Both the position numbers and the translations under genes were made by a program. A DNA stretch of 64,000 bases, taken from contig JAOAJY010000001.1 in the NCBI GenBank assembly GCA_026413965.1, forward strand, positions 125,275 through 189,274, in the 5' to 3' direction. Shown in pieces: positions 27,523 to 45,771 of the stretch (the stretch's first letter is position 1; each line of letters opens with the position of its first letter). The notes under the pieces were generated by a model. That model searched no databases. It was not told the origin of the DNA and worked only from the letters and a program-made list of their open reading frames with translations. Source of the DNA: Candidatus Micrarchaeota archaeon (GTDB taxonomy: Archaea; Micrarchaeota; Micrarchaeia; Anstonellales; Anstonellaceae).

Positions 27523-27524
27523 CC

Positions 27525-28387: not shown

Positions 28388-28402
28388 CAATATTTAAATA
28401 CT
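28388..28402 (+). promoter_or_regulatory. candidate TATA box (AATATTTAAATAC) about 25 nt upstream of the proposed GTG start of pus10; leaderless arrangement
   Basis: AT-rich box in a divergent intergenic region. The spacing fits archaeal BRE/TATA-to-TSS distance. Confidence 0.3.
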
Positions 28403-28419
28403 ATTTCAAGAACCACATC

Positions 28420-29553
28420 GTGCGCCTCTTCCAGCTGTGCGCATTGTGCGCAAAAAGATTCCCGAAAAGCAGACACATCATCGCAGCCAAAAGAGCCGAA
28501 GGCTGCTTCATATGCAGAGGGCTCCTTTCCGCAATAGGCGCGCTTTCAAGGCAGGCAGTTGAGCTTTCGGACGGCTTTGAGTGGGGCTCTTTTTCGGTGG
28601 CCTCTTCCTTCCCCAAAGATGCGCTTGCGCGCGAGCAGGATGTCTGCGACCTCTTTTCGCCTCGCGAATGCACCTCAATGAAAAATTCAGCGAACGCGCT
28701 TGCGGCAACCGCCATAAAAAACCTGTCTGGCAAGCCGAACAGCCAAAGGGAAGCGGACGCGAATTTTCTTCTTGATTTCTCCATCCAGAAGGCTTTTTTC
28801 CAGCCAAGCCCGATTTTCGTTTTTGGCAGATACCTCAAGCTTTCCCGCTCGCATTGCCAAAGCAGATGGCAGTGCTTCAAATGCGGCGGGCGGGGAGGGG
28901 AGTGCTGCAGCGGAAGCGGAAAAAGCTACCCGTCAGTTGAGGAGGAGCTCGGCAAGGTCTTTGCCCAAGCTTTTTGCGCCAAGGATGCCAAGCTGCATGC
29001 GAGCGGCAGGGAAGATGTGGATGTGCGCAACCTTGCAGGCAGGGCCTTTGTGATGGAGCTTGCCAGCCCGAAAAAAAGGAAGGCGGATTTGCTTGCCATA
29101 GAGAAGCAATTCGGGGAAAGCTGCGCAGTCAGGGCTTTCGGCTTGCGCATGGCAAAAAAATGGGCAGTCGAAGCAGTCTGCAATTCGCATTTTGACAAGG
29201 AGTATGTCGCCATCGTTTCAGCTGATCGCGAGCTTTCGCAGCAAGATTGCCAGAAGATGTCCTTTCTGGAAGGGGCGGAGATAGAGCAGCAGACTCCTTT
29301 GAGGGTGCTTGGAAGGCGGGCGGATTTGGTGCGAAAAAGAAAGGTGCTTTCAATATCTTGCCAGCCGGAAGGGAAAAAGCTCAAGCTGAGGATTCTTGCA
29401 GAGGCAGGGACCTACATAAAGGAGCTGGTGAGCTCGGATGGCGGAAGGACAAAGCCAAGCGTCGCCTCAATTTTGGGGTGCAATGCGGTTTGCGAAGAGC
29501 TGGATGTGGCAGGCATACGCGATTATTTCTTGGAGACTATAGAGTTTGATTAA
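28420..29553 (+). CDS. pus10: tRNA pseudouridine(54/55) synthase Pus10
   Basis: N-terminal zinc ribbon CALC...CFIC. GREDVDVRNLAGRAFVMEL and TYIKELVSSDGGRTKPS are Pus10 catalytic/THUMP-adjacent blocks. Start assigned to an in-frame GTG because the longer ORF overlaps the opposite-strand gene. Confidence 0.6.
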   Translation: MRLFQLCALCAKRFPKSRHIIAAKRAEGCFICRGLLSAIGALSRQAVELSDGFEWGSFSVASSFPKDALAREQDVCDLFSPRECTSMKNSANALAATAIKNLSGKPNSQREADANFLLDFSIQKAFFQPSPIFVFGRYLKLSRSHCQSRWQCFKCGGRGGECCSGSGKSYPSVEEELGKVFAQAFCAKDAKLHASGREDVDVRNLAGRAFVMELASPKKRKADLLAIEKQFGESCAVRAFGLRMAKKWAVEAVCNSHFDKEYVAIVSADRELSQQDCQKMSFLEGAEIEQQTPLRVLGRRADLVRKRKVLSISCQPEGKKLKLRILAEAGTYIKELVSSDGGRTKPSVASILGCNAVCEELDVAGIRDYFLETIEFD

Positions 29554-29577
29554 ATATTTTGCGGGAAAGGTTTTTGC

Positions 29578-30474
29578 ATGCTGGAGTTCTTCCAAGCCCC
29601 GCCAGAAGTTCCTGGGATAGAGGCAAGGATTGCTGTGGCAGTGGCTTTCACGGCAGCTGCGGCATACTATGACATGTTCAACAAAAAATGGGTGCCAAAC
29701 GCGCTCCTTTACGCGTTCATCCTTTCCGCCATCGCCGTCAACATAGCTTTTTTTGAGGAGAAGGTTTTCATGCAAGCAGTTGCGTTTGGCGCAGCTGCAT
29801 TTGCGGTTTCCTATCCTTTGTACAAAATGGGGCAGCTTGGAGGGGCAGACGTCTATGCTTATTCAGGAATAGCCCTCTCCATTCCCTATCTTCCTCAGCC
29901 TATTTTTGGGCCTGCCCAGCAGATTCCATACCCATTTCTTTTCTCAGCGCTTGCCCCAACCGGGCTGGCTTTCATTGCCCACATGCTTGTCAGGTTCGTC
30001 CCATACATAGCGGCAAGGCTCAAGTCAGGAGAGGTTCGGATAAGCGCGCAAAAAGCAGCCCCGGCAGCCCTGATTTCGCTTGCGTTCCTGTTTTTCATCT
30101 ATTCGCTGTCCAGCCTGCCAGTGGCTCTCCCCGCCCACTATCTTGCCATTCTTGGCTTTCTTTTTTCAGCGCTGGTTTTCTTCTCATTGTTCAAGGAGGA
30201 AATCAAGGAAAGCATGATAGAGTACCTGCCGCTTTCAAAAATCCAGCCAGAAGATGTGCTTGCTGTTGAGAAAATGGACCAAAAGGCAGTCTTGCGCTTG
30301 AGGCTTAATCCGCTGCTTGACCAAGGAGCAATCAGCAGGATGAAAAAAGCGAAGCTCAAAAAAGCCCCAATATTCACCAAGATGCCATTTTTCTTGCCCT
30401 ACCTTCTCTTCGGGCTCATCATCAGCATCCTTTTTGGGGACATGGTGCATTTCTTCCTCAATTCCGCCTTATAG
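29578..30474 (+). CDS. A24-family prepilin/preflagellin peptidase
   Basis: First catalytic Asp block YYDMFNKKWVPNALL (D x4 K x VPN), second block MGQLGGADVYAYSGIAL (GGxD), and a polytopic membrane topology. Confidence 0.55.
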   Translation: MLEFFQAPPEVPGIEARIAVAVAFTAAAAYYDMFNKKWVPNALLYAFILSAIAVNIAFFEEKVFMQAVAFGAAAFAVSYPLYKMGQLGGADVYAYSGIALSIPYLPQPIFGPAQQIPYPFLFSALAPTGLAFIAHMLVRFVPYIAARLKSGEVRISAQKAAPAALISLAFLFFIYSLSSLPVALPAHYLAILGFLFSALVFFSLFKEEIKESMIEYLPLSKIQPEDVLAVEKMDQKAVLRLRLNPLLDQGAISRMKKAKLKKAPIFTKMPFFLPYLLFGLIISILFGDMVHFFLNSAL

Positions 30475-31000
30475 CCTGAAGAATTTCCTCAGCTCCGCCA
30501 TCTTTGTGGAATTCTCTTGCGCTTTCAATCGCTGCCTCAAGATAAGGCCTTGAAGGAAGCGCATCTGCCGCTTCCCCTTCCAGGACAAACGCAGTCGCCA
30601 AGACCTCGCTTCCATCAGCAAGCTTCGCCTTCACAGGCATCCTCCTCCAAAACCCTGCCCAGTGGGATTTTTGCAGAGCCTCAAGCTGATGCTTTGCCAT
30701 CCTATATACCGCTCCGCGCGCAATCCCATTTTCATCCGGCACCAAATTCGCAACGCCAAACTCTGTTTTTTTGCTGGTCTGGAAAGCAATCCGGTAGCCC
30801 TCCACAACCGCAGGCTCGGCAGAATCAAATCCTCCTGCTTTTTTTGCAATCGTGCTTTTGCTTGCTGATGGGCCGTAGGCAAAAAGCGCAACAGAAGACC
30901 GGCTGTCTATGTGGAGGAAAGCCATAAGCAGCAATCCTGCGCAGGCAGCGCAGAGAATGATGAAAGCCAGCCTAACCCAGTCCATCCAACCACTTCTCAA
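30458..31000 (-). CDS. gamma-glutamyl cyclotransferase (AIG2)-like protein with N-terminal TM helix
   Basis: LFAYGPSA near the start of the soluble domain and YRMAKHQLE in the C-terminal half. Confidence 0.4.
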   Translation of the reverse strand: MRSGWMDWVRLAFIILCAACAGLLLMAFLHIDSRSSVALFAYGPSASKSTIAKKAGGFDSAEPAVVEGYRIAFQTSKKTEFGVANLVPDENGIARGAVYRMAKHQLEALQKSHWAGFWRRMPVKAKLADGSEVLATAFVLEGEAADALPSRPYLEAAIESAREFHKDGGAEEILQAIRRN

Positions 31001-33414
31001 AAGAATGAGGAGAGGCTTTTTTGCTCCCCGCCAAACCTCAAGTCCTCCTCCCGATACCCAAGCTCATGGAGTATCTTCAAGACTGATGGCAGCACTTGAT
31101 TGTCGATGTAGTATGCAGGGTCATAGTCTTTCGCAAGCTCAACAGGCTGCGCCTTTTCGGATATGCTGCTTCCTTTCTTGGTTATCACATAGCCTATTAT
31201 GTGCCCTTTCTCCACCGGCATGCCTGCGGCTATGGCTTTTTGGGCGGCAGAAAGCTCGGGAGATTTCACATCATATTTTCTTGGGTCTTTCCTTATCTGC
31301 GTGTAAATCGCAAGCTCCTCAAGAGGCACCTCGCCGCTGCGCAGCCTCTCAATGACTTTCCGGACTTCGCTTACTGCCTTTTCCTTGCTTCCGTATTTGA
31401 GTATCGCCTCCAATACTTTCCTCTGTGTAGACTTTGCGATTGCGGACCAGTCTCTTCTGACAAGCTCAAACCCGCGTATTTTTATCTTCCCATCCTCGCC
31501 AATCAGAGCGTATTTTTTCTTTGCTCCGGTTTCCTCCCCGGCGCCTTTTTTCGTGACAAAAACCCCCCTTGGATAAAACCCTTCCAGCTCAAGCTCCATG
31601 TCCCCTGGAAGCTCCTCATTTATCTTTTTCATGAATTCAAGCGCCTCTTGCTTGGTCTTGCCTCCCATAAGAAGAAAGATGGAGTCAGTGTCCCCGTATA
31701 GGACCTCAAATCCGGCTTGCTCTGCTTTTTGGATGGTCTCCTGGATGAAGTGCCTGCCCCAAGCCGTCACCGCCTCCCCGCATTCGCGCGAGTACCACCG
31801 CGACCTTGGGTATGCCAGATATCCGTAGTAAGAGTTGGCAAGGATTTTCAGAGACTGCACTCTGGCAAAAAGCATCTCGTATTCCGCAGTGTCCTTCTCA
31901 ATTTCTTTGAGCCTCTGCTTCATGCTGCTTCTGGCTGCAATCAGCTCTTGAAGGACTGATGGAATCAGGCCACGCGGGCTTTTGGCGAATCTGCTTCCGC
32001 TTGGGGAAACATAGCACTCAGCATCGCCTGCCCCGCTTGGGGGATTGAGCGTGAATGGGTCAATGTTGTGCGAGGTTATTATTGAAGGGTACAAGCCGCG
32101 GAAGTCAAAAACCACCAGGCCCTCGTATATTCCAGGCTGCGGCAGCTTGACAAACGCGCCTTTTATCGGGCCAAGCTCGCGCTCACGCGCCAAAGCCTCA
32201 TCGGGCTTGTTTGGTATTATTGCCCCTCTCTCAAAGCTTTTGTGCATCAGCAAGGACTCCACAAGCTGCCCCGCAGTGGCGTTGGCGGCGTCAAACAAAG
32301 GCAGCCTTGTCAGGCGGCTCATCTCCATCTCCAAAGGAAGAAGCATCTTCCCAATCTCCATGGTGGCTTGCGCGTCAAAAAGGGAATATTCGGCAAGCTC
32401 GCCCACAAGGGAGGGGTTTTCCCACATCTTCCATATCTCCAGCTTCCGGACCATCAGCTTCTTCTTGCCAGTGAGCTCCTCGTAAGCGTTTTCAAGGCTG
32501 TACTTTGAGACTTTGAATGCCCCAATAAAGCCCATGAACCGGACAATGGGGTAAAGGTCCAGATGTATGCGCCCAGTGATTTCCGCCACATCGCGTATCC
32601 CCTGCCGCCTGGTCCTGAAAGGCTTCCCATCCCTGCCTATCGGAAAGTCCAGCCCATTCGCATCTGCCCTGGCTTTCAGGTAAGGCAAATCAAAGGCAGT
32701 GCTGTTGTAGCCAAACAAAACCTCAACATCATTTTCTTTTATGGCCTCAAGGAATTTCTTTATCATCTCCCTCTCGTCTTTGCACACAACCGCAAAGCCT
32801 TTTCCAACCTCCTTGCTTGTGATCACCTTCCGCTCCCCAGTTTCCCCAATCTCGTAAGAAATCATGATTATCTCGTCTTTGTCTGGCCGGGGCATTCCTG
32901 TAGGGTTGTAGGTTTCAATGTCAAAAGACATCGTCCTCAAGCTGGCCGCCTTCTGCATGCGCTTGACAATCCTCTTTATCCATTTTCCTTGCCGCTCATA
33001 GACTATTGTGGAGAAAGGCGCAAGCCCCTTGTCTATAAGATATCTCCTGCCAAATGGAATGTCCTTTTCAAAGGTTGGATATTTTGAGAGAGCAGAGCTT
33101 AAGGCAGGGACATCATAGGGCATCTGGCAATAAACCTTCCAAATCTTCTTCCTTTTCCCAAGCACTTCGCGCTCCACAAGCTCGGCTTTCGTAGGGGAAG
33201 CCACCCTCCCTCTGCTTTGCGCTTTGGCGGAAAGGATCTCCTCCAAGGCGGACTCTGGAGCATCAGCATAAAAATAAGGCTCGTACCAGTCGTACAGCCT
33301 GAAGAAGCGCTTTCCTTTCATAAGCAGGCGGACAGCGGTTTTGCCATCCACTATCGCGTAATCAGCGTCAATCAGGATAGCCTTTCTTCTGGCAAGCACG
33401 CTTTCATCTTCCAT
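30997..33414 (-). CDS. polB: family B DNA polymerase
   Basis: Exo I FDIETY, motif A DFRGLYPSIITSHNI, motif C LYGDTDS. Start placed at MEDESVLARRKAILIDADYAIVDGKTAVRL; the longer ORF N-terminus looks non-coding. Confidence 0.8.
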   Translation of the reverse strand: MEDESVLARRKAILIDADYAIVDGKTAVRLLMKGKRFFRLYDWYEPYFYADAPESALEEILSAKAQSRGRVASPTKAELVEREVLGKRKKIWKVYCQMPYDVPALSSALSKYPTFEKDIPFGRRYLIDKGLAPFSTIVYERQGKWIKRIVKRMQKAASLRTMSFDIETYNPTGMPRPDKDEIIMISYEIGETGERKVITSKEVGKGFAVVCKDEREMIKKFLEAIKENDVEVLFGYNSTAFDLPYLKARADANGLDFPIGRDGKPFRTRRQGIRDVAEITGRIHLDLYPIVRFMGFIGAFKVSKYSLENAYEELTGKKKLMVRKLEIWKMWENPSLVGELAEYSLFDAQATMEIGKMLLPLEMEMSRLTRLPLFDAANATAGQLVESLLMHKSFERGAIIPNKPDEALARERELGPIKGAFVKLPQPGIYEGLVVFDFRGLYPSIITSHNIDPFTLNPPSGAGDAECYVSPSGSRFAKSPRGLIPSVLQELIAARSSMKQRLKEIEKDTAEYEMLFARVQSLKILANSYYGYLAYPRSRWYSRECGEAVTAWGRHFIQETIQKAEQAGFEVLYGDTDSIFLLMGGKTKQEALEFMKKINEELPGDMELELEGFYPRGVFVTKKGAGEETGAKKKYALIGEDGKIKIRGFELVRRDWSAIAKSTQRKVLEAILKYGSKEKAVSEVRKVIERLRSGEVPLEELAIYTQIRKDPRKYDVKSPELSAAQKAIAAGMPVEKGHIIGYVITKKGSSISEKAQPVELAKDYDPAYYIDNQVLPSVLKILHELGYREEDLRFGGEQKSLSSFF

Positions 33415-33515
33415 CTTTATCGTAGGTTTCTCCACGGCAAGCATTAAAGAGGTTTCAACAGAGCCTAGTGCTTGGATTTTAAATTTCACTCGCGTTTTGG
33501 CTGACAGGTGGTTGC

Positions 33516-34523
33516 ATGATAAATGTGGCGGTGAACGGGTTTGGAAGAATCGGAAAGCTTGTTGTGAGGGCGGCTTTTGAGCGCGGCTTTGTGGGCAAAA
33601 AATTCGAGATAGTTGCGATAAATGACACCCACGACCCAAAGCTTTCAGCCCATCTGTTCAAATACGACTCCACGCAAGGGAGGTTTTCAGGAAAGGTGAG
33701 CGCAGAGCCAGGCAAGATGCAGATAAACGGCTATGACATAAAGCTGGTCTCATCGCGCGACCCCTCAACAATCAAGTGGGGCGAGATGGGGGTGGATTTG
33801 GTCTTGGAATGCACAGGCGCATTCACAGACAGGGCAGGAGCCTCCAAGCATCTGCAGTCAGGGGCAAAAAAGGTCCTGATTTCCGCCCCATGCAAAGGAG
33901 GCGAGGCGGACGCCACCATCGTCATCGGAGTCAATGACGAAAAATACGACAAAAAGAAGCACCACATAGTGTCAATAGGCTCATGCACCACAAACTGCCT
34001 TGCCCCAGTGGCAAAGGTGGTTGATGACGCATTCGGGATAGAGGCTGGGTTCATGACCACCTGCCATGCTTACACAAACGACCAGCTCATACTTGACGCA
34101 AACCATAAGGACTTCAGGCGCGCAAGGGCAGGCGCAATAAACATAATCCCCACCTCCACAGGCGCTGCGAAAGCCATAGGCGAGGTGATACCGAAGCTGA
34201 AAGGGAAGATGGACGGGCTGGCTCTTCGGGTGCCCATCCCAGTTGGCTCAATAAACGACCTTTCTTGCCTTCTTTCAAAGGAGGCAAGCGCAGAGGAGCT
34301 GAACGCGGCTGTCAAAAAAGCCGCGGAAGGAAAGATGAAAGGAATACTGGAATACACCGAAGACCCGATTGTTTCCTCAGACATAGTCCACAATCCAGCA
34401 AGCTCCATATTCGACGCCCTTTCCACAAAGGCAATCGGCAAGACGGCGAAGCTTCTGTCATGGTATGACAATGAATGGGGCTTTTCCAACAGGATGGTGG
34501 AAATGGCGGCAAAGATGTTCTGA
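33516..34523 (+). CDS. gap: glyceraldehyde-3-phosphate dehydrogenase, class I (bacterial/eukaryotic type)
   Basis: NGFGRIGKLVVRAA, catalytic SCTTNCLAP and C-terminal WYDNEWGFS. Confidence 0.85.
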   Translation: MINVAVNGFGRIGKLVVRAAFERGFVGKKFEIVAINDTHDPKLSAHLFKYDSTQGRFSGKVSAEPGKMQINGYDIKLVSSRDPSTIKWGEMGVDLVLECTGAFTDRAGASKHLQSGAKKVLISAPCKGGEADATIVIGVNDEKYDKKKHHIVSIGSCTTNCLAPVAKVVDDAFGIEAGFMTTCHAYTNDQLILDANHKDFRRARAGAINIIPTSTGAAKAIGEVIPKLKGKMDGLALRVPIPVGSINDLSCLLSKEASAEELNAAVKKAAEGKMKGILEYTEDPIVSSDIVHNPASSIFDALSTKAIGKTAKLLSWYDNEWGFSNRMVEMAAKMF

Positions 34524-34672
34524 CGATGGGATTAAAAATTCTCGGATGCCCAATGGCATGCATTCTGGAATTTTAAGAAAAGTAGGCCTGCGCAAAAAAG
34601 CGCGCAGGCAAGGCGACCAGTTTTCTGTCCAAGACAGAAAGAAAAGACGGGCATTTCATAATGTTAGGTGTT

Positions 34673-34690
34673 GCATTATATATAAATGTT
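34673..34690 (+). promoter_or_regulatory. candidate TATA box (ATTATATATAAATG) upstream of coiled-coil gene
   Basis: Strong AT-rich box followed by AGAGGG 8 nt upstream of an in-frame TTG at 34732. Confidence 0.3.
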
Positions 34691-34731
34691 TGCATGCATT
34701 TAAACATAAAATACAACAAGAGGGTAATTTC

Positions 34732-35514
34732 TTGGCGGAAGAGAAAAAAGAAAAGCAGGCGCTTTTGGAGAGCCTTCCAGACGGCTTGAAGGAGATAGCG
34801 GATATACCTCAAGAAAAGCTCCTCACGCTGCCTGCGAAAGAGCAAGAGAAGCAAGAGCTCCTGCCCTCTCAGCAGCAAAAGCCTGCGCTTCCTGAAAGGC
34901 CCCGCACCCAAAAAGAAAAAGAGCTGGACGAGCTTATAGCCGCCCGCCAATCCATAATTGAGCAGCTTAAGGAGAAAAACCCAAAGCTTGCCGAGGCGCG
35001 CAAGCAAATAGCCTCCCTTCTGCCATCCCTCAAAGGCAAAGGAGCTGGCAAAGCAGTGGAGCTTATGCGGGAGGAAGAGAGGATAGAATTCTCAATCGCA
35101 ACCGAAGCATACACTCCCAAGCAGGAGCGGGAGCTTCTCAAGCGCCTGAGAGCCATAAGGGCAGAGCTTTCGCAGCACAAGGAGCTTGACGCGATAAGAA
35201 AGCAGGTGGAGGAGAAAAGAGCAGAGGTCAGGGCTTTGGCCTCTGAGATAAAGGAGTTGGAGAAAAAGCTTGCCGAGGCGCGCGCCGCCTGCGACGCAAA
35301 ATACGCAGAAGTTCTTGCGGAAAGGAAAGCTGCTTATGAAAAAAGGCAGCGCGAAAGGGCACAAAAGAGGCAGGAGCGCCTTTCTAGCCTTCTTGAAGCC
35401 AGGAAGAGAAAGCGGGAAAAGGAAATGGCAAAATACATGAAAGCATTTGACGACACAGTCTCAATGGATGAGATAGTGCAGATAGAGCGCAAAGAGAAAA
35501 AGAGCAAAAAATAA
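34732..35514 (+). CDS. Lys/Glu-rich coiled-coil protein (start uncertain)
   Basis: Heptad-rich KE sequence. The listed ORF begins inside the GAPDH 3' end. TTG at 34732 has an SD-like AGAGGG. The last 37 coding nt plus stop form repeat copy 1. Confidence 0.35.
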   Translation: MAEEKKEKQALLESLPDGLKEIADIPQEKLLTLPAKEQEKQELLPSQQQKPALPERPRTQKEKELDELIAARQSIIEQLKEKNPKLAEARKQIASLLPSLKGKGAGKAVELMREEERIEFSIATEAYTPKQERELLKRLRAIRAELSQHKELDAIRKQVEEKRAEVRALASEIKELEKKLAEARAACDAKYAEVLAERKAAYEKRQRERAQKRQERLSSLLEARKRKREKEMAKYMKAFDDTVSMDEIVQIERKEKKSKK

Positions 35515-35524
35515 TCATTCAAGA
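35475..35524 (+). repeat. 50-bp perfect direct repeat, copy 1 (AGTGCAGATAGAGCGCAAAGAGAAAAAGAGCAAAAAATAATCATTCAAGA)
   Basis: Identical to 36419-36468 by direct comparison. Covers the 3' end and stop codon of the upstream gene. Confidence 0.9.
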
Positions 35525-35550
35525 TTCAGCCCATCCAAACTAATAAAAAT

Positions 35551-35557
35551 AAGGAGG
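35551..35557 (+). promoter_or_regulatory. Shine-Dalgarno-like AAGGAGG 13 nt upstream of pilin ATG
   Basis: Seen directly in the sequence. Confidence 0.4.
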
Positions 35558-35570
35558 CAGTATAAAAGGT

Positions 35571-36392
35571 ATGCGTGGCTACTCCTTAAAAAAAGCTCAA
35601 GGAAGCACGGAATACCTAGGTATAATGATAATCGTCCTGGTGATCGCACTTGTTTCTATATCAATAATGAACGATGCATTTGTCAAGACATCAGATGTTA
35701 AGGTATCCGAAAGCTCTGCCTATTGGCAGTCTGCTTCTCCGATTGCAATTCTGGAATCTAGGGCAGATGCTTCTGGCTTGACATTTAAGGTTAGGAATAA
35801 TGGGTTAGAAAGGATCGAAATAAATGGGATTCTTTCTTCTGGCTCGCAAATTCCCCTTTCACCTGCCATTTCTCTTTCCCCTGGCGAAGAAAGATTGATT
35901 TCTAATATAGCTGGATTGAACCTTACAGCAGGCAGAAAAAAGGTAGATGTTTTTTCACTCGGTTTTTCCTATACGGTTCGCTTCGGCTCAATGTCCATGA
36001 CCAAGATCCAGACAGGCCCCCCAGTCACCTCCATAGTATGTGGTGATGCCGATTGCTCTAGCCTCGGCAGCTCTTCTGGTTGCGGAATAGGGTGCGGATT
36101 TGGCTATACCTGTTGCAGCTATGAGCCTGGGCAGTATGCCTGTCTATTTGCAAGCGGAGGGACACTATGCAGCGGATTTGAAGTGTGCAGCGAAGGAAAG
36201 TTTTACTGCGAGCCAATGGGCCAGTGTGTCCCCCTAGGAACAATCTGCAATAATTGCATGGGCAGCTGCGGAGAGGGGCAAGTGTGCTGTGTTTGCGATG
36301 CCCAATGTGTTCCTGAAGGGCAGTGTGCTTGCGAACACTGCTTGGAAATCCAATGCTCAGGCGGGAACTGCATCTGCGTTTCTCAAGGATGA
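35571..36392 (+). CDS. archaeal type IV pilin-like protein (class III signal, DUF361-like QGSTEYL motif) with Cys-rich C-terminal domain
   Basis: MRGYSLKKAQGSTEYLGIMIIVLVIALVSISI is a prepilin-peptidase signal plus hydrophobic helix. The C-terminal ~115 aa contain about 30 Cys (CGIGCGFGYTCCSYEPGQYAC...CVCDAQCVPEGQCACEHC). Confidence 0.6.
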   Translation: MRGYSLKKAQGSTEYLGIMIIVLVIALVSISIMNDAFVKTSDVKVSESSAYWQSASPIAILESRADASGLTFKVRNNGLERIEINGILSSGSQIPLSPAISLSPGEERLISNIAGLNLTAGRKKVDVFSLGFSYTVRFGSMSMTKIQTGPPVTSIVCGDADCSSLGSSSGCGIGCGFGYTCCSYEPGQYACLFASGGTLCSGFEVCSEGKFYCEPMGQCVPLGTICNNCMGSCGEGQVCCVCDAQCVPEGQCACEHCLEIQCSGGNCICVSQG

Positions 36393-36418
36393 TTTTCGAA
36401 TAGCAGCAAACAGCCACA

Positions 36419-36468
36419 AGTGCAGATAGAGCGCAAAGAGAAAAAGAGCAAAAAATAATCATTCAAGA
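36419..36468 (+). repeat. 50-bp perfect direct repeat, copy 2
   Basis: Identical to 35475-35524. Lies between the pilin stop codon and the convergent geranylgeranyl reductase stop, overlapping its last two codons. Confidence 0.9.
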
Positions 36469-37692
36469 CAGCAGAAGCCTAAGGTAAAACAGCGGAGAGG
36501 CATATCCCTTGCGCGCCTCTTCGTCCGAAAATGTGCTTGCTATCGCTTCCCTTGCTTTCTGGCTGCTTGAGGCTTTGGCTATCACGAAGTTCAGCAGCCA
36601 CTCGTGCCTTCCAAGCTTTTGCATCATGTAGCTTCTTTCAAGCTCGTCCCCCACTTCTTTCCAAAGCCTCTCAGGATACCTGGCAAGAAAGCTTTCAGAG
36701 GTGTCTCCTGCCGCAAGAGCCTCATCTGCAACCTGCGCGGCTATTTTTCCTGAAAGAAGCGCATTCCCGATTCCTTCGCCTGAAAAAGGATCGACCAAGC
36801 CTGCCGCATCTCCGACCAAAAGCACGCCGTCCGAGTGCACTTTTCTTCTTTTTGAGCCAAAAGGCAAAGACCAAGCCTTTATTGGCGTAAGCTGCTTGGC
36901 GGACTTGAACCTTTCGGCAAAAAGCGGGTTTTTCTCTATCACCTCAAGCATGGCTTTCTGGAGGTTGACGTTCCGAGCCTTCATGTCCTCCATCACCATG
37001 CCAACGCCGACGTTCGCAAGCCCGTTCTCCAGCGGGAAAATCCAAAAATAGCCAGGCATTATGGAGCGGACGAAATGTATCTCCAAAGCATTGCCCATGC
37101 CAGAAATGCCGGAGTAATACGCCCTGTAAGCTATGCACGTGTGGGCAGGGTCAACCTCTGAGCCCCTGATTTCCCTTGCGACAAGAGAGGACACTCCGTC
37201 TGCGCCGATAATTATTTTGCCGCGGAACTCCTCTTCCCTTCCGCCTATTTTTGCCCTCACTCCGCACACCTTCCCATTCTCCCGCAACACTCCGACAACC
37301 TCAGCGCCATCCCTTGCCTCGGCTGCCTTTGCAGCCGCTTTCCAAACAATGTGGTCAAAAACCTGCCTTCTGCAAACATAGCCTTTCTTGATTCCTTTTT
37401 CCTGGCTTGCGAACGTTATGGAGGCGACCTTGCCGCTTGGCGAGGAAAATGTGACTCCCTCAACCAAGGCATGGTCTGCCCTCTCAAGCTCTCCAATAAG
37501 CCCAAGCTCCTCAATTATCTTTATGGATTTTCCGGATATGGCATCCCCGCAGGTCTTGTCTTTGGGCCATTTTTCCTTCTCCAAAAGAAGGACCTTCCTC
37601 CCTTTGCTTGACAGGAATGCGGCGGCAGAGCTTCCTGCGGGCCCTCCGCCAACCACTACAGCGTCATACATGGTTTCTGCCACAAAACTCAC
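36463..37692 (-). CDS. geranylgeranyl reductase (digeranylgeranylglycerophospholipid reductase)
   Basis: FAD motif YDAVVVGGGPAGSSAA, GDAAG, about 409 aa. Confidence 0.8.
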   Translation of the reverse strand: MSFVAETMYDAVVVGGGPAGSSAAAFLSSKGRKVLLLEKEKWPKDKTCGDAISGKSIKIIEELGLIGELERADHALVEGVTFSSPSGKVASITFASQEKGIKKGYVCRRQVFDHIVWKAAAKAAEARDGAEVVGVLRENGKVCGVRAKIGGREEEFRGKIIIGADGVSSLVAREIRGSEVDPAHTCIAYRAYYSGISGMGNALEIHFVRSIMPGYFWIFPLENGLANVGVGMVMEDMKARNVNLQKAMLEVIEKNPLFAERFKSAKQLTPIKAWSLPFGSKRRKVHSDGVLLVGDAAGLVDPFSGEGIGNALLSGKIAAQVADEALAAGDTSESFLARYPERLWKEVGDELERSYMMQKLGRHEWLLNFVIAKASSSQKAREAIASTFSDEEARKGYASPLFYLRLLLS

Positions 37693-37745
37693 CAGCCTTA
37701 GCTAAATTTCCAAAACAATAAAAAAAGCTTCTGCCAACTTTATTT

Positions 37746-38381
37746 GTGGCAAGCAGCACAATTTTCTCTGGAGTGAAGGTCACATGGCTTGGGCATGCCA
37801 GCATACATCTGGAAGGCGATGGCATGTCGGTTTATGCAGACCCATATGTTCTTCCAAAGGCTCCCAAGCCGGCAGATGTCATACTTTACACTCATGGACA
37901 CTTTGACCACTGCGTAGCCGCCCCTTCAATAACTACCCACAAGACAGTTGTGATTGGGCACGGGTGCAAGCTGCCTTGCAGGGTGATACAAGCAGGTGGC
38001 ATTGAAAAAATCGGCGGATTGCTTGTGGAGGCAGTTGAAGCCTACAACATCAGCAAGCCGTATCATCCAAAAGGCTCAGGCGTGGGGTATATAGTCAAGT
38101 TCAAAACCGCCTCTGTGTACATAGCAGGCGACACCGATTTCATACCAGAGATGCGGAATTGCAAGTGCGACATAGCGCTGGTCCCTATAGGCGGGACTTA
38201 CACCATGGACGCAAAAGAGGCTGCCTTGGCGGTGGCTGCCATCAAGCCCAAGCTGGCAATACCCATCCACTTCAACTACCTTGCCGAGACCAAGGCCGAC
38301 CCTGAGGAATTCCGATCAGAGGTGGAACGGCTCTCTTTGGGGAAAATAGAAGTCAGGATATTGGCTCCTCAGGGCAGGTAG
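37746..38381 (+). CDS. MBL-fold metal-dependent hydrolase (UPF0173-like)
   Basis: HGHFDH motif in a 211-aa protein. Confidence 0.6.
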   Translation: MASSTIFSGVKVTWLGHASIHLEGDGMSVYADPYVLPKAPKPADVILYTHGHFDHCVAAPSITTHKTVVIGHGCKLPCRVIQAGGIEKIGGLLVEAVEAYNISKPYHPKGSGVGYIVKFKTASVYIAGDTDFIPEMRNCKCDIALVPIGGTYTMDAKEAALAVAAIKPKLAIPIHFNYLAETKADPEEFRSEVERLSLGKIEVRILAPQGR

Positions 38382-38410
38382 GTTGTCTGGAAAGCGGAAA
38401 AGTTTTTGAT

Positions 38411-39274
38411 TTGGCTCAAGCAGCAGCCAAAGGCTTTCTCTCAGCGCTCTTTGCCTTTTTGCTTGCCTCCGGCTTATCCCTAAGCGTCATGGCGCAAAAG
38501 CTGCTTGACGCCGAAGCCTATATGGCTTCAATTGAGAAATACGCTTCCTATTCTGAAATGAGGAATCACTTGGCGGCATCCATCGCAAGAAGCTTCCCGC
38601 CAAATTTGAGGCAGGGCGCGCAAGAAGAGATAAGAAGCGCCATAACTGAGGATTATCTGCGCAGCCAAGTGCGAAATGCAGTGGGCTCTGCCCTCGACTA
38701 TCTTTCCTCAAAATCAGACAGGCTTTATTTGCGGATGGACCTCTCTCCAATCAAAGAAAAGCTGAAAGAAAGCCAGCTGCCTGAGTTGAGGGTTGCCTCT
38801 CAAGCCTTTCCTGCCAGTCTTGATTTGGCTGAGGAAGAGGGGAACTTGGAGCAGATGAAGCAGCTGGAAAGCGCGCGCCAGCAGATAAGCCAGGCAAACA
38901 AAATAAAGCACCTGCTTGTCGCAGCCTCTATCCTGCCTCTTGCGTTGCTTTTCTTTTTCCATGAAGGCTATAGAGGCTGGCTGCATGGGTGCGGAAGCCT
39001 TCTTTTGAAGGCAGGCGTATCTTGCCTATCTTTAAGCGCAGTCCTTTTTGCCATGCCTTTTGCTCTGCCAGAAATCCTTCCGTCCATGCAAAATTCATCG
39101 CAGGGAGCTGAAACCGCCCGCCTTGCCGGGCAGATATTGGGGGAAGTTTTTTCGCAGGCAGGAGTTGAGCTTGCGCTGCATTCCGCCCCAATCATTTTGG
39201 CAGGCGGAGCCCTCATGCTCCTGCTCAAGAAGCCCGAAACGAATAATAATCCAAGCTCCGAAGCTTCTGCATGA
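38411..39274 (+). CDS. hypothetical membrane protein
   Basis: TTG start. N-terminal TM helix plus C-terminal TM helices. Its stop overlaps the start of the giant downstream gene. Confidence 0.35.
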   Translation: MAQAAAKGFLSALFAFLLASGLSLSVMAQKLLDAEAYMASIEKYASYSEMRNHLAASIARSFPPNLRQGAQEEIRSAITEDYLRSQVRNAVGSALDYLSSKSDRLYLRMDLSPIKEKLKESQLPELRVASQAFPASLDLAEEEGNLEQMKQLESARQQISQANKIKHLLVAASILPLALLFFFHEGYRGWLHGCGSLLLKAGVSCLSLSAVLFAMPFALPEILPSMQNSSQGAETARLAGQILGEVFSQAGVELALHSAPIILAGGALMLLLKKPETNNNPSSEASA

Positions 39275-42200
39275 TGATGGGGTGTCCAAAAAGGCACCTT
39301 GCCTTTCTTGCGAGCCTTCTTCTTTTCGGCTTAGCTTTCCCATCCGGGCTTTCAGGCTGCTTTTCCCCATCGCCTCTTGAAAGGTTCTGGGAGAGCCCAG
39401 GGTATTTCGAGTCCAACCCGCACGTTTCCAATTTGGGCATTTTCAAGTTCTATTCCTACGCATTTGACAATTCGACAAAAAGCCTGGAGCTTGAGCAAAC
39501 AGCGCTGCTGTCGCAGCAGGAAATCTTTTCTGCCCTAAGCCTCGAGCAAAGGGAAGAATTCTTCCCAGCCATAAAAGAGCTTGAGGCATCGCAAAGCCAC
39601 CTTTCGAAGGCAAAAGCGCATGCCGCAGAAGCCCAGAGGCTTTCCTCAGAGTCCCAAAAGCTCGCCTCGCATATTTTTGACCAAACCCAAATCGCCCTCC
39701 TTTACCTCCCCTATCCATTTTCCAACTTGCCGGCAATATGGCTTTTTCTCAAGTCCCAGGCAGCCTCTGAGTATATCTCAAAATACCCTGCAACTCTGCA
39801 AGCCGCATATTCCCACTCGGCAAGCGCCTATGACTCTGCCCAAAAAGCAGCCTATCTTGCAGCCTCCCTTGCGGACAAAAAAGCCTCGGCATTGCTGTTT
39901 GCAGGGGCAGGAGACGCCAAATACTCAGGGAAGGCGAAAAGCGCCTATTACCGCTACCAGGAGCTTCTTTCCTCAGGCAGGCTTTGCGGCAAGCAAAGGG
40001 CAGAAAGCATACGCGGCTATTTTTCATCCAGCCCCAGCATGCCTGACTTTTCGCAGGCAGGGTTCGGCCAGCATCTGAGGCAGATTGCAGGCAAAGGCAA
40101 CAATTCCTCGCTTTTCCAGCTTGCTTTGCTTTATTCCGAGCTTTCCTCTGCCCATGCCGCCATGCAAGAGGAGTACTTTGAGATGAGGGCAAGCGCGCTG
40201 GAATCCCAAAGGCAGCTTGAGCTCCACATTTCCCTGCTGGAGTCCGAAAGGCTGGACCTGATAGACAGCCTATCAAATGAGGCTGGACAAAAGAGCCTTT
40301 CAGCAGGGACAGGCTTTGCCGGGCTCTCCAGCGGCCTGAAAATAGCCAAAGACAGGCTCTTCTCATCGCAGCACCTTCTTTCGTCATCCGAATCCATCGC
40401 AAAATCAAAAGATTACCAAGGCTACCTTTCGGATGCAATCCACAAAGCCTCGCAAGCCAAAGAGCTCTCCCAAAGCTCGCTTTCTTCTCTGTCCAAAATA
40501 AGGCAAGACGCAATTTTTCTTGCGGACGGCAAAAGAAAAGAGGCGGAGCAATCCATATTAGACGCTGAAAGCTATTTCTCAAATGGAAGCCAGGCAAGCT
40601 CAAAAATGCGGGCGCAGTCTCTTCTCATGCTTCAGGATGCGAAAAAGAAGTTCAGCCTTGCGTCACAGGCAAAGCGGATAGGGGAGCAGTTTGTCCTTTA
40701 TTCAGAGGCAAAAGCCATGGCAGAAGCTTCGCGCCAGGCTTTGCTCACTGGAAGCCTGGCTTCCGCGAAAGAGCAAGCCTTCAAGGAGGTCCAGGCGCTT
40801 TCTGATGCCATCTTGAAGGCAGAAAAGGACGGGCTGGATGTCTCCTTTGAGAAGTCCAAGCTTGCAGAGTACCAGCAGCTTTTGCAGCTTGTTGATTCTG
40901 CGGAGGCAATGCTTGCATTAAGCGAAGCTTCCAGAAGCGAGCATCAAGGGCTGATTTTGAGGCTTTCAGGAAAATACCGGCATCTCTCCGACGGATTCCC
41001 GCAGCTGCAAATGCTTGTGCTGGAAATAAGAAAAAAAGACCCGCTTTTCTTGCCGGAGTTTGACAGCGTGTCCAAATACTTCAAGGAGGGGGGTTTGGAC
41101 GCCAAGGAGGCTGCAGGCAAGCTGAAGGAAATAGAGGCTTCCATCAGCGAGCTATTATCCAAGGCAAAAAGCAGAATACCTCAGCACCTCTCGCAGGTGC
41201 TCTCGGAGAATGCAGAAGCCATAGAGCTAAGGGAGCCGTTCTCGATAGGCAAGCCAAGCAAATACAAGGCAAGCATCCACACCCAAAACACAGCAGAGAT
41301 TGGCTACAGCGGCACTGTGGTGTTTTTTGCCAGGACTTCCTCTGCCCTCTCAACCCAGGACTTTTCAGGAGGAAGCCCAATCAAAGACGCTTACCAAAAA
41401 GAAGGCAAAACCGCAATAGAGATTTCCGGAGTTTCTCCAAAGCAAACCCTGTCTTTCTTCTTTGAGAAATTTGAGCAGCCGGTCCAGGCAGTCTCCCTAA
41501 AGCCATTTTGCCATTCCGCTACTCAGGAGGAGGCTTCAGCAGGGGCAGAGCTTCGTTTTGTGTCAGAAAAGCCGCTGGAATCGGCTTTTTTTGCCCTGCC
41601 TGCCCCAGAAAGCCTGGCAAGCCCATCAGCATCATATCTTGGCTTCCCTGCTGACTACATAAGGCAAGCCCCAGGAGGGATGCTTGAGGGGAGAATATCC
41701 CAAATCCAAAAGGGCGATGGGAGGCTGGAAATAAGCTATAAAGTCATGAAGCCATTTGATGCCAAAGTTGTCGAGGAGAGCTCCAAAAGCCTAGGGGCAG
41801 GAAGGCAAGCCATCCGCATGTCTTTGGTGGTTGAGAACGCGGCTCTTGATTGCGCACAAGCTTCAGTCTCTTTCCAGCTTCCTTATTTTGGGATTGAGAA
41901 CTTCTCCGTCGCAAGCCCAAGCGGCAGTGCCATATTGTCCAAGCAGGTTGCGCAAAACTCCGCAGGCTCTGAAGCAAAATTTGCCTTTTCCCCTCTTGCC
42001 AAGGGCTCAAAAGCGCATTTTGAGCTGCATTTTGAGGTCCAAAACAAATCTGAAGCTTTAAGCCACGCTATCCGGATGCTTGAGCTTTCAGCTTTGCACT
42101 CAAACAGCACCCTCCAGCATTTGGCTTTGGAGCAAGCGCGGCTTCTTGCAGAGGCAAACAAGACTGATGAGGCGCTGCTTCTTTCCCAGTCAGCCTACCG

Positions 42201-43317
42201 CCTTCAAAGCCAAAGCAGCCCTCTTGACATCATCTCCTACCAAGAGAGCCTGGAGCATGCCCAAGCTCTCCTCTCTTCGGCAAAATCCTCCCAAAAAGCA
42301 ATGCGCCAATCCTCATCAATGCATCTTGAGCTGTCAAAGGCAATAGCAGACCTTGAGTCTTCAATCTCGTCAGCCTCTTTTCTGGCTGAGCGCGGAAGCT
42401 ACTCAAAGGCGGCAAGCCAGCTTAGGGAATCTTCTGGCAGCTTCCAATCTTTCATAGCCCAGCTTGCCTCAAAATCCGCAAATGACGCATTGGAAGGGTA
42501 TTCAAAGGCAAAAGAGAGGCAGGCGGACCAAGCGCTGCTTTCATCCTGCTCGCAGGCAATTTCCCAGGGAAGCCGCCTGTTTTCCCAAGGCGAAATCCTA
42601 AAGTCGCTTGAGCGCTTCGCAGAAGCCCAAAGCATCCTGTCTGAAATTTCCGGCATCCAGGAAGCTCAAGAGAAAGAGCTGGCTTTGCAGGCAGAAGAGA
42701 TAGGGAAAAAATTCCAAGCCCTAAAAGAAGAGTTTGAAAGCAAGCTTTCGTCATATTCTCCGCAGTACTCCTCATTGTCCCAGCAAAGCAGAAGGAAGCT
42801 TCCAATAACCCCAAGCGAGGCGCAGGCAAGGCTCGCGGAGGCGCAAAGGAAGATTTCCTCAGCCTCAAAATACAAGGATGCCAAGCAGCGGCTGCAAGAG
42901 GCGAGCCAATCCTACATGCTTTTGGAGTCTGCGGACAAGTCGCTTTCAGATGCAATAAGCCAATTGCGCTCCTCAGCAGAGTCATCGCTTAAGGTGGCAA
43001 GAATAGCTTTGGCTGAGGCGCAAGCAAAGTCCTCAAGCCAGGACAGCTCCCTGCTGGCTCAGATGGAGAAAGAGGCTGAGAAGGCAGAGGAGGCTTACGC
43101 CAACGGGCTTTATGCGGATTCCCTTTCGTCTTCTGACAGGGTGATAAGCGCGGCAAACGCGCTGTTGTCATCAAAAAAGCAAGATGGCATCCCCAAGGCA
43201 GAATTGCTTGCAGCCATCTCCGCCATATTCATTATTGCGGCTGCCTATTTCCTGCTCTCAAAAGCCAACAGGGGCAGCCAGAAAAAAGAGAAGAAAAGCA
43301 TCCCCAAGTCCGATTAG
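39271..43317 (+). CDS. giant (1348 aa) low-complexity coiled-coil surface protein with N-terminal signal/lipobox-like peptide and C-terminal TM anchor
   Basis: N-terminus MMMGCPKRHLAFLASLLLFGLAFPSGLSGC. Body rich in Ser/Ala/Leu/Gln/Glu/Lys. C-terminus LLAAISAIFIIAAAYFLLSKANRGSQKKEKK. Confidence 0.5.
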   Translation: MMMGCPKRHLAFLASLLLFGLAFPSGLSGCFSPSPLERFWESPGYFESNPHVSNLGIFKFYSYAFDNSTKSLELEQTALLSQQEIFSALSLEQREEFFPAIKELEASQSHLSKAKAHAAEAQRLSSESQKLASHIFDQTQIALLYLPYPFSNLPAIWLFLKSQAASEYISKYPATLQAAYSHSASAYDSAQKAAYLAASLADKKASALLFAGAGDAKYSGKAKSAYYRYQELLSSGRLCGKQRAESIRGYFSSSPSMPDFSQAGFGQHLRQIAGKGNNSSLFQLALLYSELSSAHAAMQEEYFEMRASALESQRQLELHISLLESERLDLIDSLSNEAGQKSLSAGTGFAGLSSGLKIAKDRLFSSQHLLSSSESIAKSKDYQGYLSDAIHKASQAKELSQSSLSSLSKIRQDAIFLADGKRKEAEQSILDAESYFSNGSQASSKMRAQSLLMLQDAKKKFSLASQAKRIGEQFVLYSEAKAMAEASRQALLTGSLASAKEQAFKEVQALSDAILKAEKDGLDVSFEKSKLAEYQQLLQLVDSAEAMLALSEASRSEHQGLILRLSGKYRHLSDGFPQLQMLVLEIRKKDPLFLPEFDSVSKYFKEGGLDAKEAAGKLKEIEASISELLSKAKSRIPQHLSQVLSENAEAIELREPFSIGKPSKYKASIHTQNTAEIGYSGTVVFFARTSSALSTQDFSGGSPIKDAYQKEGKTAIEISGVSPKQTLSFFFEKFEQPVQAVSLKPFCHSATQEEASAGAELRFVSEKPLESAFFALPAPESLASPSASYLGFPADYIRQAPGGMLEGRISQIQKGDGRLEISYKVMKPFDAKVVEESSKSLGAGRQAIRMSLVVENAALDCAQASVSFQLPYFGIENFSVASPSGSAILSKQVAQNSAGSEAKFAFSPLAKGSKAHFELHFEVQNKSEALSHAIRMLELSALHSNSTLQHLALEQARLLAEANKTDEALLLSQSAYRLQSQSSPLDIISYQESLEHAQALLSSAKSSQKAMRQSSSMHLELSKAIADLESSISSASFLAERGSYSKAASQLRESSGSFQSFIAQLASKSANDALEGYSKAKERQADQALLSSCSQAISQGSRLFSQGEILKSLERFAEAQSILSEISGIQEAQEKELALQAEEIGKKFQALKEEFESKLSSYSPQYSSLSQQSRRKLPITPSEAQARLAEAQRKISSASKYKDAKQRLQEASQSYMLLESADKSLSDAISQLRSSAESSLKVARIALAEAQAKSSSQDSSLLAQMEKEAEKAEEAYANGLYADSLSSSDRVISAANALLSSKKQDGIPKAELLAAISAIFIIAAAYFLLSKANRGSQKKEKKSIPKSD

Positions 43318-45768: not shown

Positions 45769-45771
45769 GGG

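What the first reader, a model, noticed from the sequence alone, without database searches (positions are those of the whole stretch)
35475..36468. Perfect 50-bp direct repeats bracket the Cys-rich pilin gene as an ~0.9-kb cassette
The 50-mer AGTGCAGATAGAGCGCAAAGAGAAAAAGAGCAAAAAATAATCATTCAAGA occurs at 35475-35524 and again at 36419-36468. Copy 1 is the 3' end and stop codon of the upstream coiled-coil gene. Copy 2 lies just after the pilin stop and overlaps the last codons of the convergent geranylgeranyl reductase. The pilin gene sits alone between them with its own SD. This is a signature of insertion or exchange: an integrase-independent cassette, a long target duplication, or a substrate for recombinational deletion or swapping of the pilin. 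A 50-bp duplication is far longer than classical transposon target-site duplications.
Basis: seen in the sequence. Interest (0 to 1): 0.8.

Follow-up and report, generated by a model that had tools for sequence, protein, structure and literature searches.

The report
Recent pilin-gene insertion with 50-bp duplication
In a tiny symbiotic archaeon (Micrarchaeota), one self-contained gene for a cysteine-rich surface-fibre (pilin-like) protein was recently inserted between two tightly abutting housekeeping genes, duplicating 50 bp of the target so both neighbours stayed intact; this is a clean but single example of how such reduced genomes gain a gene.

Summary
The 50-mer occurs exactly twice (35475-35524 and 36419-36468) and is the only long exact repeat in the 64 kb window. 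The two closest relatives (L014 and L015) keep the same order, PolB–GAPDH–coiled-coil→←GGR–MBL. In both, the coiled-coil gene directly abuts GGR (6 and 11 nt apart), with one copy of the site and no pilin. L014 is collinear over about 17 kb, and the pilin is the only extra gene. Copy 1 encodes the conserved C-terminus of the coiled-coil protein. Copy 2 carries GGR's stop codon, last codon and T-rich 3' flank. The 894-bp insert holds a TATA-like box, one ORF and a T-run. The ORF is a class-III-signal pilin-like protein with 24 Cys in its last 119 residues. In the two other contigs where a Cys-rich homologue could be located, it sits beside cdc48. I found no integrase, transposase, terminal inverted repeats, attC-like hairpin, paralogue, or viral or plasmid relative. 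The best reading is a recent one-off gene capture at a break staggered by 50 nt, filled in to create the duplication. The insertion itself is well supported, but the mechanism is inferred. Interest is moderate.

The parts
34732..35514 (+). Coiled-coil protein gene (annotated N3F07_00885, 260 aa), a conserved Micrarchaeota family. Its last 12 codons and stop lie in repeat copy 1.
   Evidence: P0007, 100% identity; the C-terminus DDTVSMDEIVxIEKKEKK is conserved in 15 orthologues.
35475..35524 (+). Repeat copy 1, the native target sequence. It holds the coiled-coil C-terminal codons, the TAA stop (35512-35514), a 4-nt spacer, and a now non-functional copy of the GGR stop and last codon (TCAAGA).
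35525..36418 (+). Inserted segment (894 bp): a minimal transcription unit with no terminal inverted repeats and no second ORF.
   Evidence: It is absent from the collinear L014 and L015. Its ends were inspected. No other copy occurs in the window.
35541..35552 (+). A/T-rich TATA-like box (TAATAAAAATAA) centred about 25 nt upstream of the ATG; a leaderless mRNA is likely. This is inferred, not shown.
   Evidence: Sequence reading. L004 and L016 carry a conserved TTTATAAA block at about -27 of their homologues.
35571..36392 (+). Pilin-like ORF (273 aa). It has a class III signal (MRGYSLKKA|QGSTEY), a hydrophobic N-helix, a beta-sandwich, and a Cys-rich tail with 24 Cys in residues 155-273.
   Evidence: (PF04021, 14.9 bits, below cutoff).
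36393..36396 (+). T4 run immediately after the pilin stop; a possible archaeal termination signal (inferred).
   Evidence: Sequence reading.
36419..36468 (+). Repeat copy 2, the derived duplicate. It supplies the GGR stop (36463-36465), the last GGR codon, and on the minus strand the T6/T5 runs 3' of GGR. Otherwise it is non-coding.
   Evidence: In one search, blastn aligns window 36426 onwards to the 3' end of the L014 coiled-coil gene. One search shows the T-runs, which are also present in L014 and L015.
36463..37671 (-). Geranylgeranyl reductase family gene. It is intact, with a conserved C-terminus ...PLFYLRLLLS*.
   Evidence: (TIGR02032, 229 bits).
29578..30474 (+). Prepilin (type IV leader) peptidase gene. 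It is context only, being the enzyme expected to process the class III signal.
   Evidence: PF01478, 34.9 bits. It is syntenic in L014 and L019.

Best explanation
A single-gene transcription unit was inserted recently into the 4-nt gap region between the convergent coiled-coil and GGR genes of this Micrarchaeota chromosome. The unit consists of a TATA-like promoter, a Cys-rich type-IV-pilin-like ORF and a T-run. The 50-bp repeat is a target-site duplication created during the event; it is not a pre-existing recombination site. The most likely mechanism is that the two DNA strands were broken 50 nt apart, at 35474/35475 and 35524/35525. A linear DNA fragment was joined between the two ends, and the single-stranded overhangs were filled in, so both sides carry the same 50 bp. 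Because the two genes overlap functionally in this stretch, the duplication left both neighbours untouched. The Lys-rich tail of one gene is, on the other strand, the T-rich 3' flank of the other. That is probably why this insertion survived. The perfect repeats could now allow scar-free loss of the gene by recombination. Shown: the repeat, the empty site in relatives, the direction of the change (gain) and its relative recency. Inferred: the staggered break with fill-in, the promoter and terminator roles, and excision.
For: Exact 50-mer pair, unique in the window. L014 (coiled-coil 72%, GGR 81% identity) and L015 (60% and 75%) have cc directly abutting GGR, with 6- and 11-nt spacers, one copy of the site and no pilin. 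L014 shares 11 collinear genes with the window, and the pilin is the only extra gene. Copy 2 aligns to the 3' end of L014's cc gene. The cc C-terminus encoded by the repeat is conserved family-wide, so copy 1 is native. The GGR C-terminus is intact. Zero differences in 50 bp implies under about 6% divergence (95% bound), against about 26% nucleotide divergence from L014. In the two located contigs, Cys-rich homologues sit beside cdc48 behind a conserved promoter block, which is a different context. There is no recombinase in 64 kb. The insert has no terminal inverted repeats and the repeat no hairpin. The insert has no paralogue and no viral or plasmid relatives. A de novo duplication accounts for the perfect identity and for boundaries that ignore gene limits. 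Precedents exist: 46-nt staggered breaks are repaired into duplications by fill-in plus end joining (PMC5730883), and IS1549 and IS1634 make 8-514 bp duplications (PMC2266710).
Against: Only one event is seen. No second insertion of this kind was found among seven family members in other loci. The donor is unknown, so junction microhomology cannot be assessed. End-joining capacity in Micrarchaeota is unknown, and only 64 kb of the genome was available. No read data were available to confirm the assembly or to detect empty or circular forms. Low GC3 of the insert (z = -2.7) is partly a family trait, so foreign origin is not established.
Confidence: 0.5

Rival explanations
1. Replication-based template switching (the FoSTeS/MMBIR type). 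A stalled fork finished copying the 50 bp and jumped to a donor locus, where it copied the 894-bp pilin unit. It then returned 50 bp upstream on the original template and copied that stretch again.
For: This model also creates a perfect de novo duplication without any element-encoded enzyme, so it fits. The target is a 76% purine, A-rich tract at a head-on convergent gene junction, a plausible stalling site.
Against: No microhomology is visible between the insert's 3' end (…CCACA) and the sequence before the repeat (…GAGAT). The donor is unknown. The purine bias is not exceptional, as 320 other 50-nt windows are equally purine-rich.
Confidence: 0.2
2. Site-specific (att-type) integration of a small integrase-less cassette mobilised in trans. 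The 50-mer would be an attB/attP core, with the copies acting as attL and attR. The unit could excise as a 944-bp circle and re-integrate.
For: Identical direct repeats of 40-60 bp at gene 3' ends are the classical footprint of archaeal and bacterial integrative elements (established knowledge). The insert is a compact, promoter-bearing single-gene unit. The gene's location differs between genomes.
Against: No integrase lies in the insert or in the 64 kb. The 50-mer and both insert ends are absent from the viral, genome and metagenome collections. Homologues in L004 and L016 have no flanking repeats. The attP would have to match 50/50 a sequence that differs substantially even in the closest relative.
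Confidence: 0.15
3. The arrangement is ancestral, and the relatives lost the pilin by recombination between the two repeat copies.
For: Recombination between 50-bp direct repeats would leave exactly the empty site seen in L014 and L015.
Against: The mostly non-coding copy 2 would need to stay 100% identical to copy 1 while the orthologous site diverged strongly between lineages. It would require at least two independent precise losses. The deeper outgroups L019 and L020 carry a different gene (a second FAD oxidoreductase) at this spot and no pilin.
Confidence: 0.05
4. Assembly artefact, or mis-threading of an extrachromosomal 944-bp circle into an empty chromosomal site.
For: The source is a metagenome-assembled genome, seen in only one assembly. 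50 = k-1 for k = 51. No reads were available.
Against: Both junctions are seamless, with no Ns. An X-R-Y-R-Z path needs real reads across R|Y and Y|R. A 50-bp repeat is shorter than the final k of the usual metagenome assemblers, so it would be spanned directly (own knowledge). No other such repeat occurs in the 64 kb. Both neighbouring genes are exactly preserved, which a random chimera would not achieve.
Confidence: 0.05

Closest known systems
Target-site duplications of transposable elements, especially the long variable duplications of IS1549/IS1634 (8-514 bp; PMC2266710)
   Same: A direct duplication of pre-existing target sequence flanks inserted DNA, and its length is far beyond the usual 2-14 bp.
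   Different: The insert and the 64 kb contain no transposase. The insert has no terminal inverted repeats, there is only one copy, and the cargo is a single cellular-type gene.
Repair of staggered double-strand breaks by fill-in plus end joining, giving duplications of the inter-nick sequence (46-nt overhangs; PMC5730883, PMC8355091)
   Same: The duplication length equals the stagger, no element-encoded functions are needed, and the identity of the copies is perfect.
   Different: The mechanism is documented in eukaryotic cells with engineered nicks. Here 894 bp of foreign DNA is captured as well, and the enzymology in a DPANN archaeon is unknown.
attL/attR of integrated archaeal and bacterial elements (tyrosine-recombinase integration at gene 3' ends; own knowledge)
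   Same: Perfect direct repeats of about 50 bp bracket the acquired DNA, and the repeat restores the 3' end of the target gene.
   Different: There is no integrase, the target is not a tRNA, the element is under 1 kb with one gene, and no related element or att sequence is found elsewhere.
Integron gene cassettes, including the archaeal integrons (PMC9668308)
   Same: A single-ORF unit of about 0.9 kb added to a chromosome.
   Different: There is no attC-like imperfect palindrome: the repeat folds at only -4.3 kcal/mol with a 4-bp stem. There is no IntI or attI and no array, and the unit appears to carry its own promoter.
Archaeal type IV pilins (e.g. the Pyrobaculum and Sulfolobus pili 8fk7, 6w8u, 8q30)
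   Same: A class III signal motif, an N-terminal hydrophobic helix plus a beta-sandwich, and a prepilin peptidase encoded nearby.
   Different: It has an extra 119-residue tail with 24 Cys, seen in only 4 of more than 200 family members. The Pfam and Foldseek scores are below formal thresholds.
Neisseria pilE/pilS pilin variation (own knowledge)
   Same: A surface pilin gene associated with recombination-prone repeats.
   Different: The window has no silent partial pilin copies, and the repeats are neighbour-gene sequence rather than pilin sequence. The system works differently.

Membership tests
DDE transposon / insertion sequence | Element-encoded transposase | tested here: not met
   The insert has a single pilin-like ORF. 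No transposase Pfam hit was found in the window's ORFs of 150 aa or more.
DDE transposon / insertion sequence | Terminal inverted repeats at the element ends | tested here: not met
   The ends are TTCAGCCCATCC… and …AACAGCCACA, which show no complementarity.
DDE transposon / insertion sequence | Direct duplication of the target flanking the element | tested here: met
   The 50-bp duplication matches the single-copy site in L014 and L015. The length is atypical, since 2-14 bp is usual.
DDE transposon / insertion sequence | Multiple copies, or copies in other genomes | tested here: not met
   There is no other copy in the window or in the viral, phage or plasmid collections. The rest of the MAG was not available.
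Integrative element (att-site recombination) | Identical direct repeats (attL/attR) bracketing the element | tested here: met
Integrative element (att-site recombination) | Tyrosine or serine recombinase encoded by the element or nearby | tested here: not met
   Searches found none in 64 kb. The genome-wide question is not testable here.
Integrative element (att-site recombination) | The same att core present on a free or related element (attP) | tested here: not met
   There were 0 exact matches in the genome, metagenome and viral collections. These were exact-match searches only.
Integron gene cassette | attC site (an imperfect inverted repeat forming a hairpin) at the cassette 3' end | tested here: not met
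   The repeat's minimum free energy is -4.3 kcal/mol with a 4-bp stem. No inverted repeat lies at the insert's 3' end.
Integron gene cassette | Adjacent IntI integrase/attI and a cassette array | tested here: not met
   The neighbours are housekeeping genes, syntenic with the relatives.
Archaeal type IV pilin-like protein | Class III signal peptide with a prepilin-peptidase site followed by a hydrophobic helix | tested here: inconclusive
   The motif KKA|QGSTEYLGIMIIVLVIALV is present. PF04021 is matched over its full length, but at 14.9 bits against a cutoff of 23.7. Family member P0003 reaches 23.7.
Archaeal type IV pilin-like protein | N-terminal alpha-helix plus a beta-sandwich globular domain resembling solved archaeal pilins | tested here: inconclusive
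   The AF2 model has pLDDT 82-98 for residues 11-160, with a helix at 12-54 followed by beta-strands. The top Foldseek hits are the archaeal pili 8fk7, 8q30 and 6w8u (prob 0.96-1.0), but with E = 5e-3 or weaker and low TM-scores.
Archaeal type IV pilin-like protein | Cognate prepilin peptidase in the genome | tested here: met
   PF01478 Peptidase_A24 at 29578-30474, 34.9 bits.
Staggered-break fill-in duplication with DNA capture | The duplicated stretch is a copy of the contiguous pre-insertion target and directly abuts both ends of the insert | tested here: met
   The reconstructed empty allele aligns to L014 and L015.
Staggered-break fill-in duplication with DNA capture | End-joining or fill-in machinery available in the organism | not testable with these tools
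   Only 64 kb of the MAG was available, and no Ku- or LigD-like hit occurs in the window.

The most novel reading that the evidence does not exclude
The 944-bp unit (insert plus one repeat) is a member of a so-far undescribed class of integrase-less archaeal single-gene cassettes. Such cassettes would insert with about 50-bp target duplications and be able to pop out precisely through those repeats. This would give a DPANN symbiont reversible gain and loss of a cysteine-rich adhesive pilin, possibly tuning host attachment.
Probability: 0.1. Interest if true: 0.75.

Novelty: new variant of a known kind. Interest (0 to 1): 0.42.

Why it matters
DPANN archaea have very small, streamlined genomes, and how they acquire new surface genes is poorly documented. 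Here the molecular scar of a single gene gain is fully legible. The empty site, the filled site, the exact boundaries and a 50-bp duplication all appear within otherwise invariant housekeeping synteny. The case shows that tightly packed convergent genes can accept an insertion without damage when the overlapping 3' region is duplicated. The duplication length is outside the range of classical transposons and comes with no recombinase in sight, pointing either to break-repair gene capture or to an unknown trans-acting mechanism in archaea. The cargo is a rare Cys-rich pilin variant and a plausible host-attachment factor.

Tried and rejected
1. Exact-sequence look-ups of the window's pilin and GGR, and of P0001, in the contig index returned nothing, so the source contig and any sister assemblies could not be compared.
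2. The 50-mer or its sub-patterns gave 0 hits in genome contigs, metagenome contigs and viral contigs. The insert ends gave 0 hits in viral contigs.
3. GGR-anchored loci L001-L013 (at most 67% identity) proved too distant. They carry a second oxidoreductase downstream of GGR and no coiled-coil gene. The coiled-coil protein turned out to be the useful anchor.
4. A dispersed-repeat or MITE explanation was rejected.
5. Integron attC was rejected. Rfam found only a tRNA-Met at 11045-11119.
6. A Neisseria-like silent-cassette system was rejected, as there are no partial pilin copies.
7. Composition as proof of foreign origin was downgraded after the control.
8. The first AF2 model, from a 2-sequence alignment, was too poor to use (pLDDT 52).
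9. A PDB sequence search gave only an insignificant defensin hit (E = 0.31).
10. A literature search for the source study and its assembler was unproductive.
11. The short P0009 contigs (L017, L018) end before any recognisable GGR sequence and gave no additional empty site.
Full report
OBSERVATION. The 50-mer is present exactly twice, at 35475-35524 and 36419-36468, on the same strand and 944 nt apart. No third copy appears even with 3 mismatches allowed, and none is expected by chance. It is the only exact repeat of 24 nt or more in the 64-kb window. It is also the only exact repeat of 20 nt or more that brackets a gene in 186 kb of window plus related loci. Copy 1 contains the last 12 codons and the TAA stop (35512-35514) of the coiled-coil gene. 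Copy 2 contains the stop (36463-36465, minus strand) and last codon of a geranylgeranyl-reductase-family gene (TIGR02032, 229 bits). The 894 bp between the copies carry one ORF (35571-36392).

SOURCE AND CONTEXT. The ORF product is identical to a hypothetical protein of a Candidatus Micrarchaeota MAG (N3F07_00890, 219-kb contig). The window is core chromosome, with SRP54, Pus10, prepilin peptidase, PolB, GAPDH, GGR, an MBL hydrolase, Orc1/Cdc6, SufBCD, H+-PPase and GatDE. None of its ORFs of 150 aa or more hits an integrase, transposase or recombinase family.

THE EMPTY SITE. GGR-anchored searches found only relatives at 67% identity or less, with different genes 3' of GGR. The coiled-coil protein proved the better anchor.
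- Its closest orthologue (72%) lies on L014, an Anstonellaceae MAG contig with the order Pus10–A24–GGACT–PolB–GAPDH–cc→←GGR–MBL–TM–large protein. The cc stop and the GGR stop are 6 nt apart, and there is no pilin.
- L015 (cc 60%, GGR 75%) is the same, with an 11-nt spacer.
- tblastn and blastn show eleven collinear genes between window 26197-43317 and L014. The pilin ORF is the only gene without a counterpart.
- The second blastn segment begins at window 36426, inside copy 2, and aligns to the 3' end of L014's cc gene.
- Deleting one repeat copy plus the insert in silico gives cc-TAA-tcat-TCA-GGR, which aligns base for base with the junctions of the relatives.
- More distant relatives (L019, L020; cc 51%) have a second FAD oxidoreductase between cc and GGR. 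The block is therefore ancient, and this intergenic spot first lost a gene and then, only in the window's lineage, gained the pilin.

POLARITY AND AGE. The peptide encoded by the repeat (…IVQIERKEKKSKK*) is the conserved family C-terminus (DDTVSMDEIVxIEKKEKK), so copy 1 is native and copy 2 is the duplicate. GGR's C-terminus is intact and conserved. Zero differences in 50 bp bound the divergence of the copies at under about 6% (95%). The block is about 26% diverged from L014, and the orthologous site in L014 and L015 differs at many positions. Ancestral presence with repeated precise loss is therefore very unlikely.

THE CARGO. The insert starts 16 nt upstream of an A/T-rich TATA-like box (35541-35552) centred about 25 nt before the ATG. 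It ends 26 nt after the stop, which is followed directly by TTTT. These roles are inferred from archaeal promoter and terminator rules.
- The protein has the class III signal motif KKA|QGSTEY followed by a hydrophobic helix. It is the only such motif in the window.
- It gives a full-length but sub-threshold match to PF04021 (14.9 against 23.7 bits).
- With a 68-sequence alignment, AF2 gives a confident N-helix plus beta-sandwich (pLDDT 82-98 for residues 11-160).
- The best PDB matches are archaeal type IV pili (8fk7, 8q30, 6w8u; prob 0.96-1.0, but E = 5e-3 or weaker).
- A prepilin peptidase is encoded 5 kb upstream.
- The last 119 residues hold 24 Cys. Among more than 200 family members, only four have this tail.
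- In both contigs where such homologues could be located (L004, L016), the gene lies divergent from a cdc48-type gene behind a conserved block aaaagtgcctcaaaaSTTTATAAAGGGG, with no flanking repeats. The window has no cdc48. So the window's copy is in a non-canonical place.
- Its GC3 (0.449 against 0.576±0.047, z = -2.7) and codon usage (z = -2.2) are atypical. Family members in other genomes show the same tendency, so this is only weak evidence for foreign origin.
- There are no viral or plasmid relatives.

WHY THE DUPLICATION MATTERS FUNCTIONALLY. On the minus strand, T6 and T5 runs follow the GGR stop within 30 nt. These runs are the antisense of the Lys-rich codons of the cc tail, and the same holds in L014 and L015. 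Oligo-T tracts are archaeal termination signals (established knowledge). The 50 bp therefore hold two overlapping elements, the cc C-terminus and GGR's 3' flank. Duplication lets each gene keep its own copy. This explains tolerance of the insertion, not the mechanism, and it is inference.

MECHANISM. A duplication made de novo from the target is the simplest account of four features. These are the perfect identity, the boundaries that ignore gene limits (the last base of an Ile codon on one side, one codon into GGR on the other), the absence of terminal inverted repeats, and the absence of any recombinase.
- I favour a break staggered by 50 nt, with capture of a linear fragment and fill-in. 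Experimentally, 46-nt staggered breaks are repaired into duplications of the inter-nick sequence (PMC5730883). IS1549 and IS1634 transposases are known to generate 8-514 bp duplications by an unexplained route (PMC2266710).
- Template switching during replication is a close rival.
- att-type integration of a trans-mobilised cassette remains possible, but it needs an unseen integrase and an attP matching 50/50 a fast-diverging host sequence. Nothing related was found in any collection.
- Integron cassettes are excluded by the lack of an attC-like structure (PMC9668308 for the comparison).
- An assembly artefact is unlikely, because both junctions are seamless and both neighbouring genes are precisely preserved. 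It cannot be excluded without reads.

VERDICT. The event is a recent, apparently one-off gene gain with an unusually long target duplication in a DPANN archaeon. It is a new variant of known insertion scars rather than a demonstrated new mobile system. Interest is moderate. It would rise sharply if read data showed excision circles, or if a survey showed that such 50-bp-flanked single-gene units recur.

Noticed in passing
window 36033-36392 (pilin residues 155-273); also L004 and L016: The pilin-like protein carries a 119-residue C-terminal extension with 24 cysteines (CGIGCG…CCVCD…CACEHC…CICV). Only 4 of more than 200 family members have it (P0001, P0002, P0074, P0075). It has no Pfam or PDB sequence match, and its model confidence is low to moderate (pLDDT 41-76).
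   Followed up: partly
L004 1-230 and L016 3-420: In both located homologue contigs, the Cys-rich pilin gene is divergently paired with a cdc48-type AAA ATPase gene. The two contigs share a conserved promoter-like block, aaaagtgcctcaaaaSTTTATAAAGGGG, about 27 nt upstream of the start, which suggests a conserved leaderless promoter.
   Followed up: partly
window 36390-36458: The pilin stop codon TGA is in the same reading frame as the duplicated coiled-coil tail in copy 2. Read-through or a stop mutation would append FSNSSKQPQVQIERKEKKSKK. This is probably coincidence, with a 1 in 3 chance.
   Followed up: no
window 35475-35521 / 36419-36465; L014 8745-8783; L015 960-1005: The convergent coiled-coil and GGR genes are only 4-11 nt apart in three genomes. 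The Lys-rich tail of one gene is, on the other strand, the T-rich putative terminator of the other, so coding and termination signals overlap.
   Followed up: partly
L019 5861-6925; L001 6383-7480; L003 8575-9666: A second FAD-dependent oxidoreductase (a GGR paralogue of about 355-365 aa) lies directly 3' of GGR in more distant Micrarchaeota. It is absent from the window, L014 and L015, so it was lost at the very spot where the pilin was later gained.
   Followed up: partly
window 39271-43317: A 1348-aa Ser/Ala/Leu-rich protein has an N-terminal signal-like segment, a C-terminal hydrophobic anchor and no Pfam match. It is conserved in L014 (53%) and L019, and may be a surface or S-layer-like protein.
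   Followed up: no
window 45444-45944 and 55406-55954: Two ORFs of 166 and 182 aa have codon usage even more atypical than the pilin's (scores -0.19 and -0.05) and no Pfam hits. They may be non-genes or further recently acquired or fast-evolving genes.
   Followed up: no
window vs L014 (whole block): The closest relative shares 73-74% nucleotide identity but has much lower GC3 (0.43 against 0.58 in the window). Base composition has therefore shifted strongly between these lineages. The insert's GC3 (0.45) resembles the relative's genome more than its own.
   Followed up: no
window 53328-54569: An Orc1/Cdc6 gene lies about 17 kb from the insertion, so a replication origin may be nearby.
   Followed up: no
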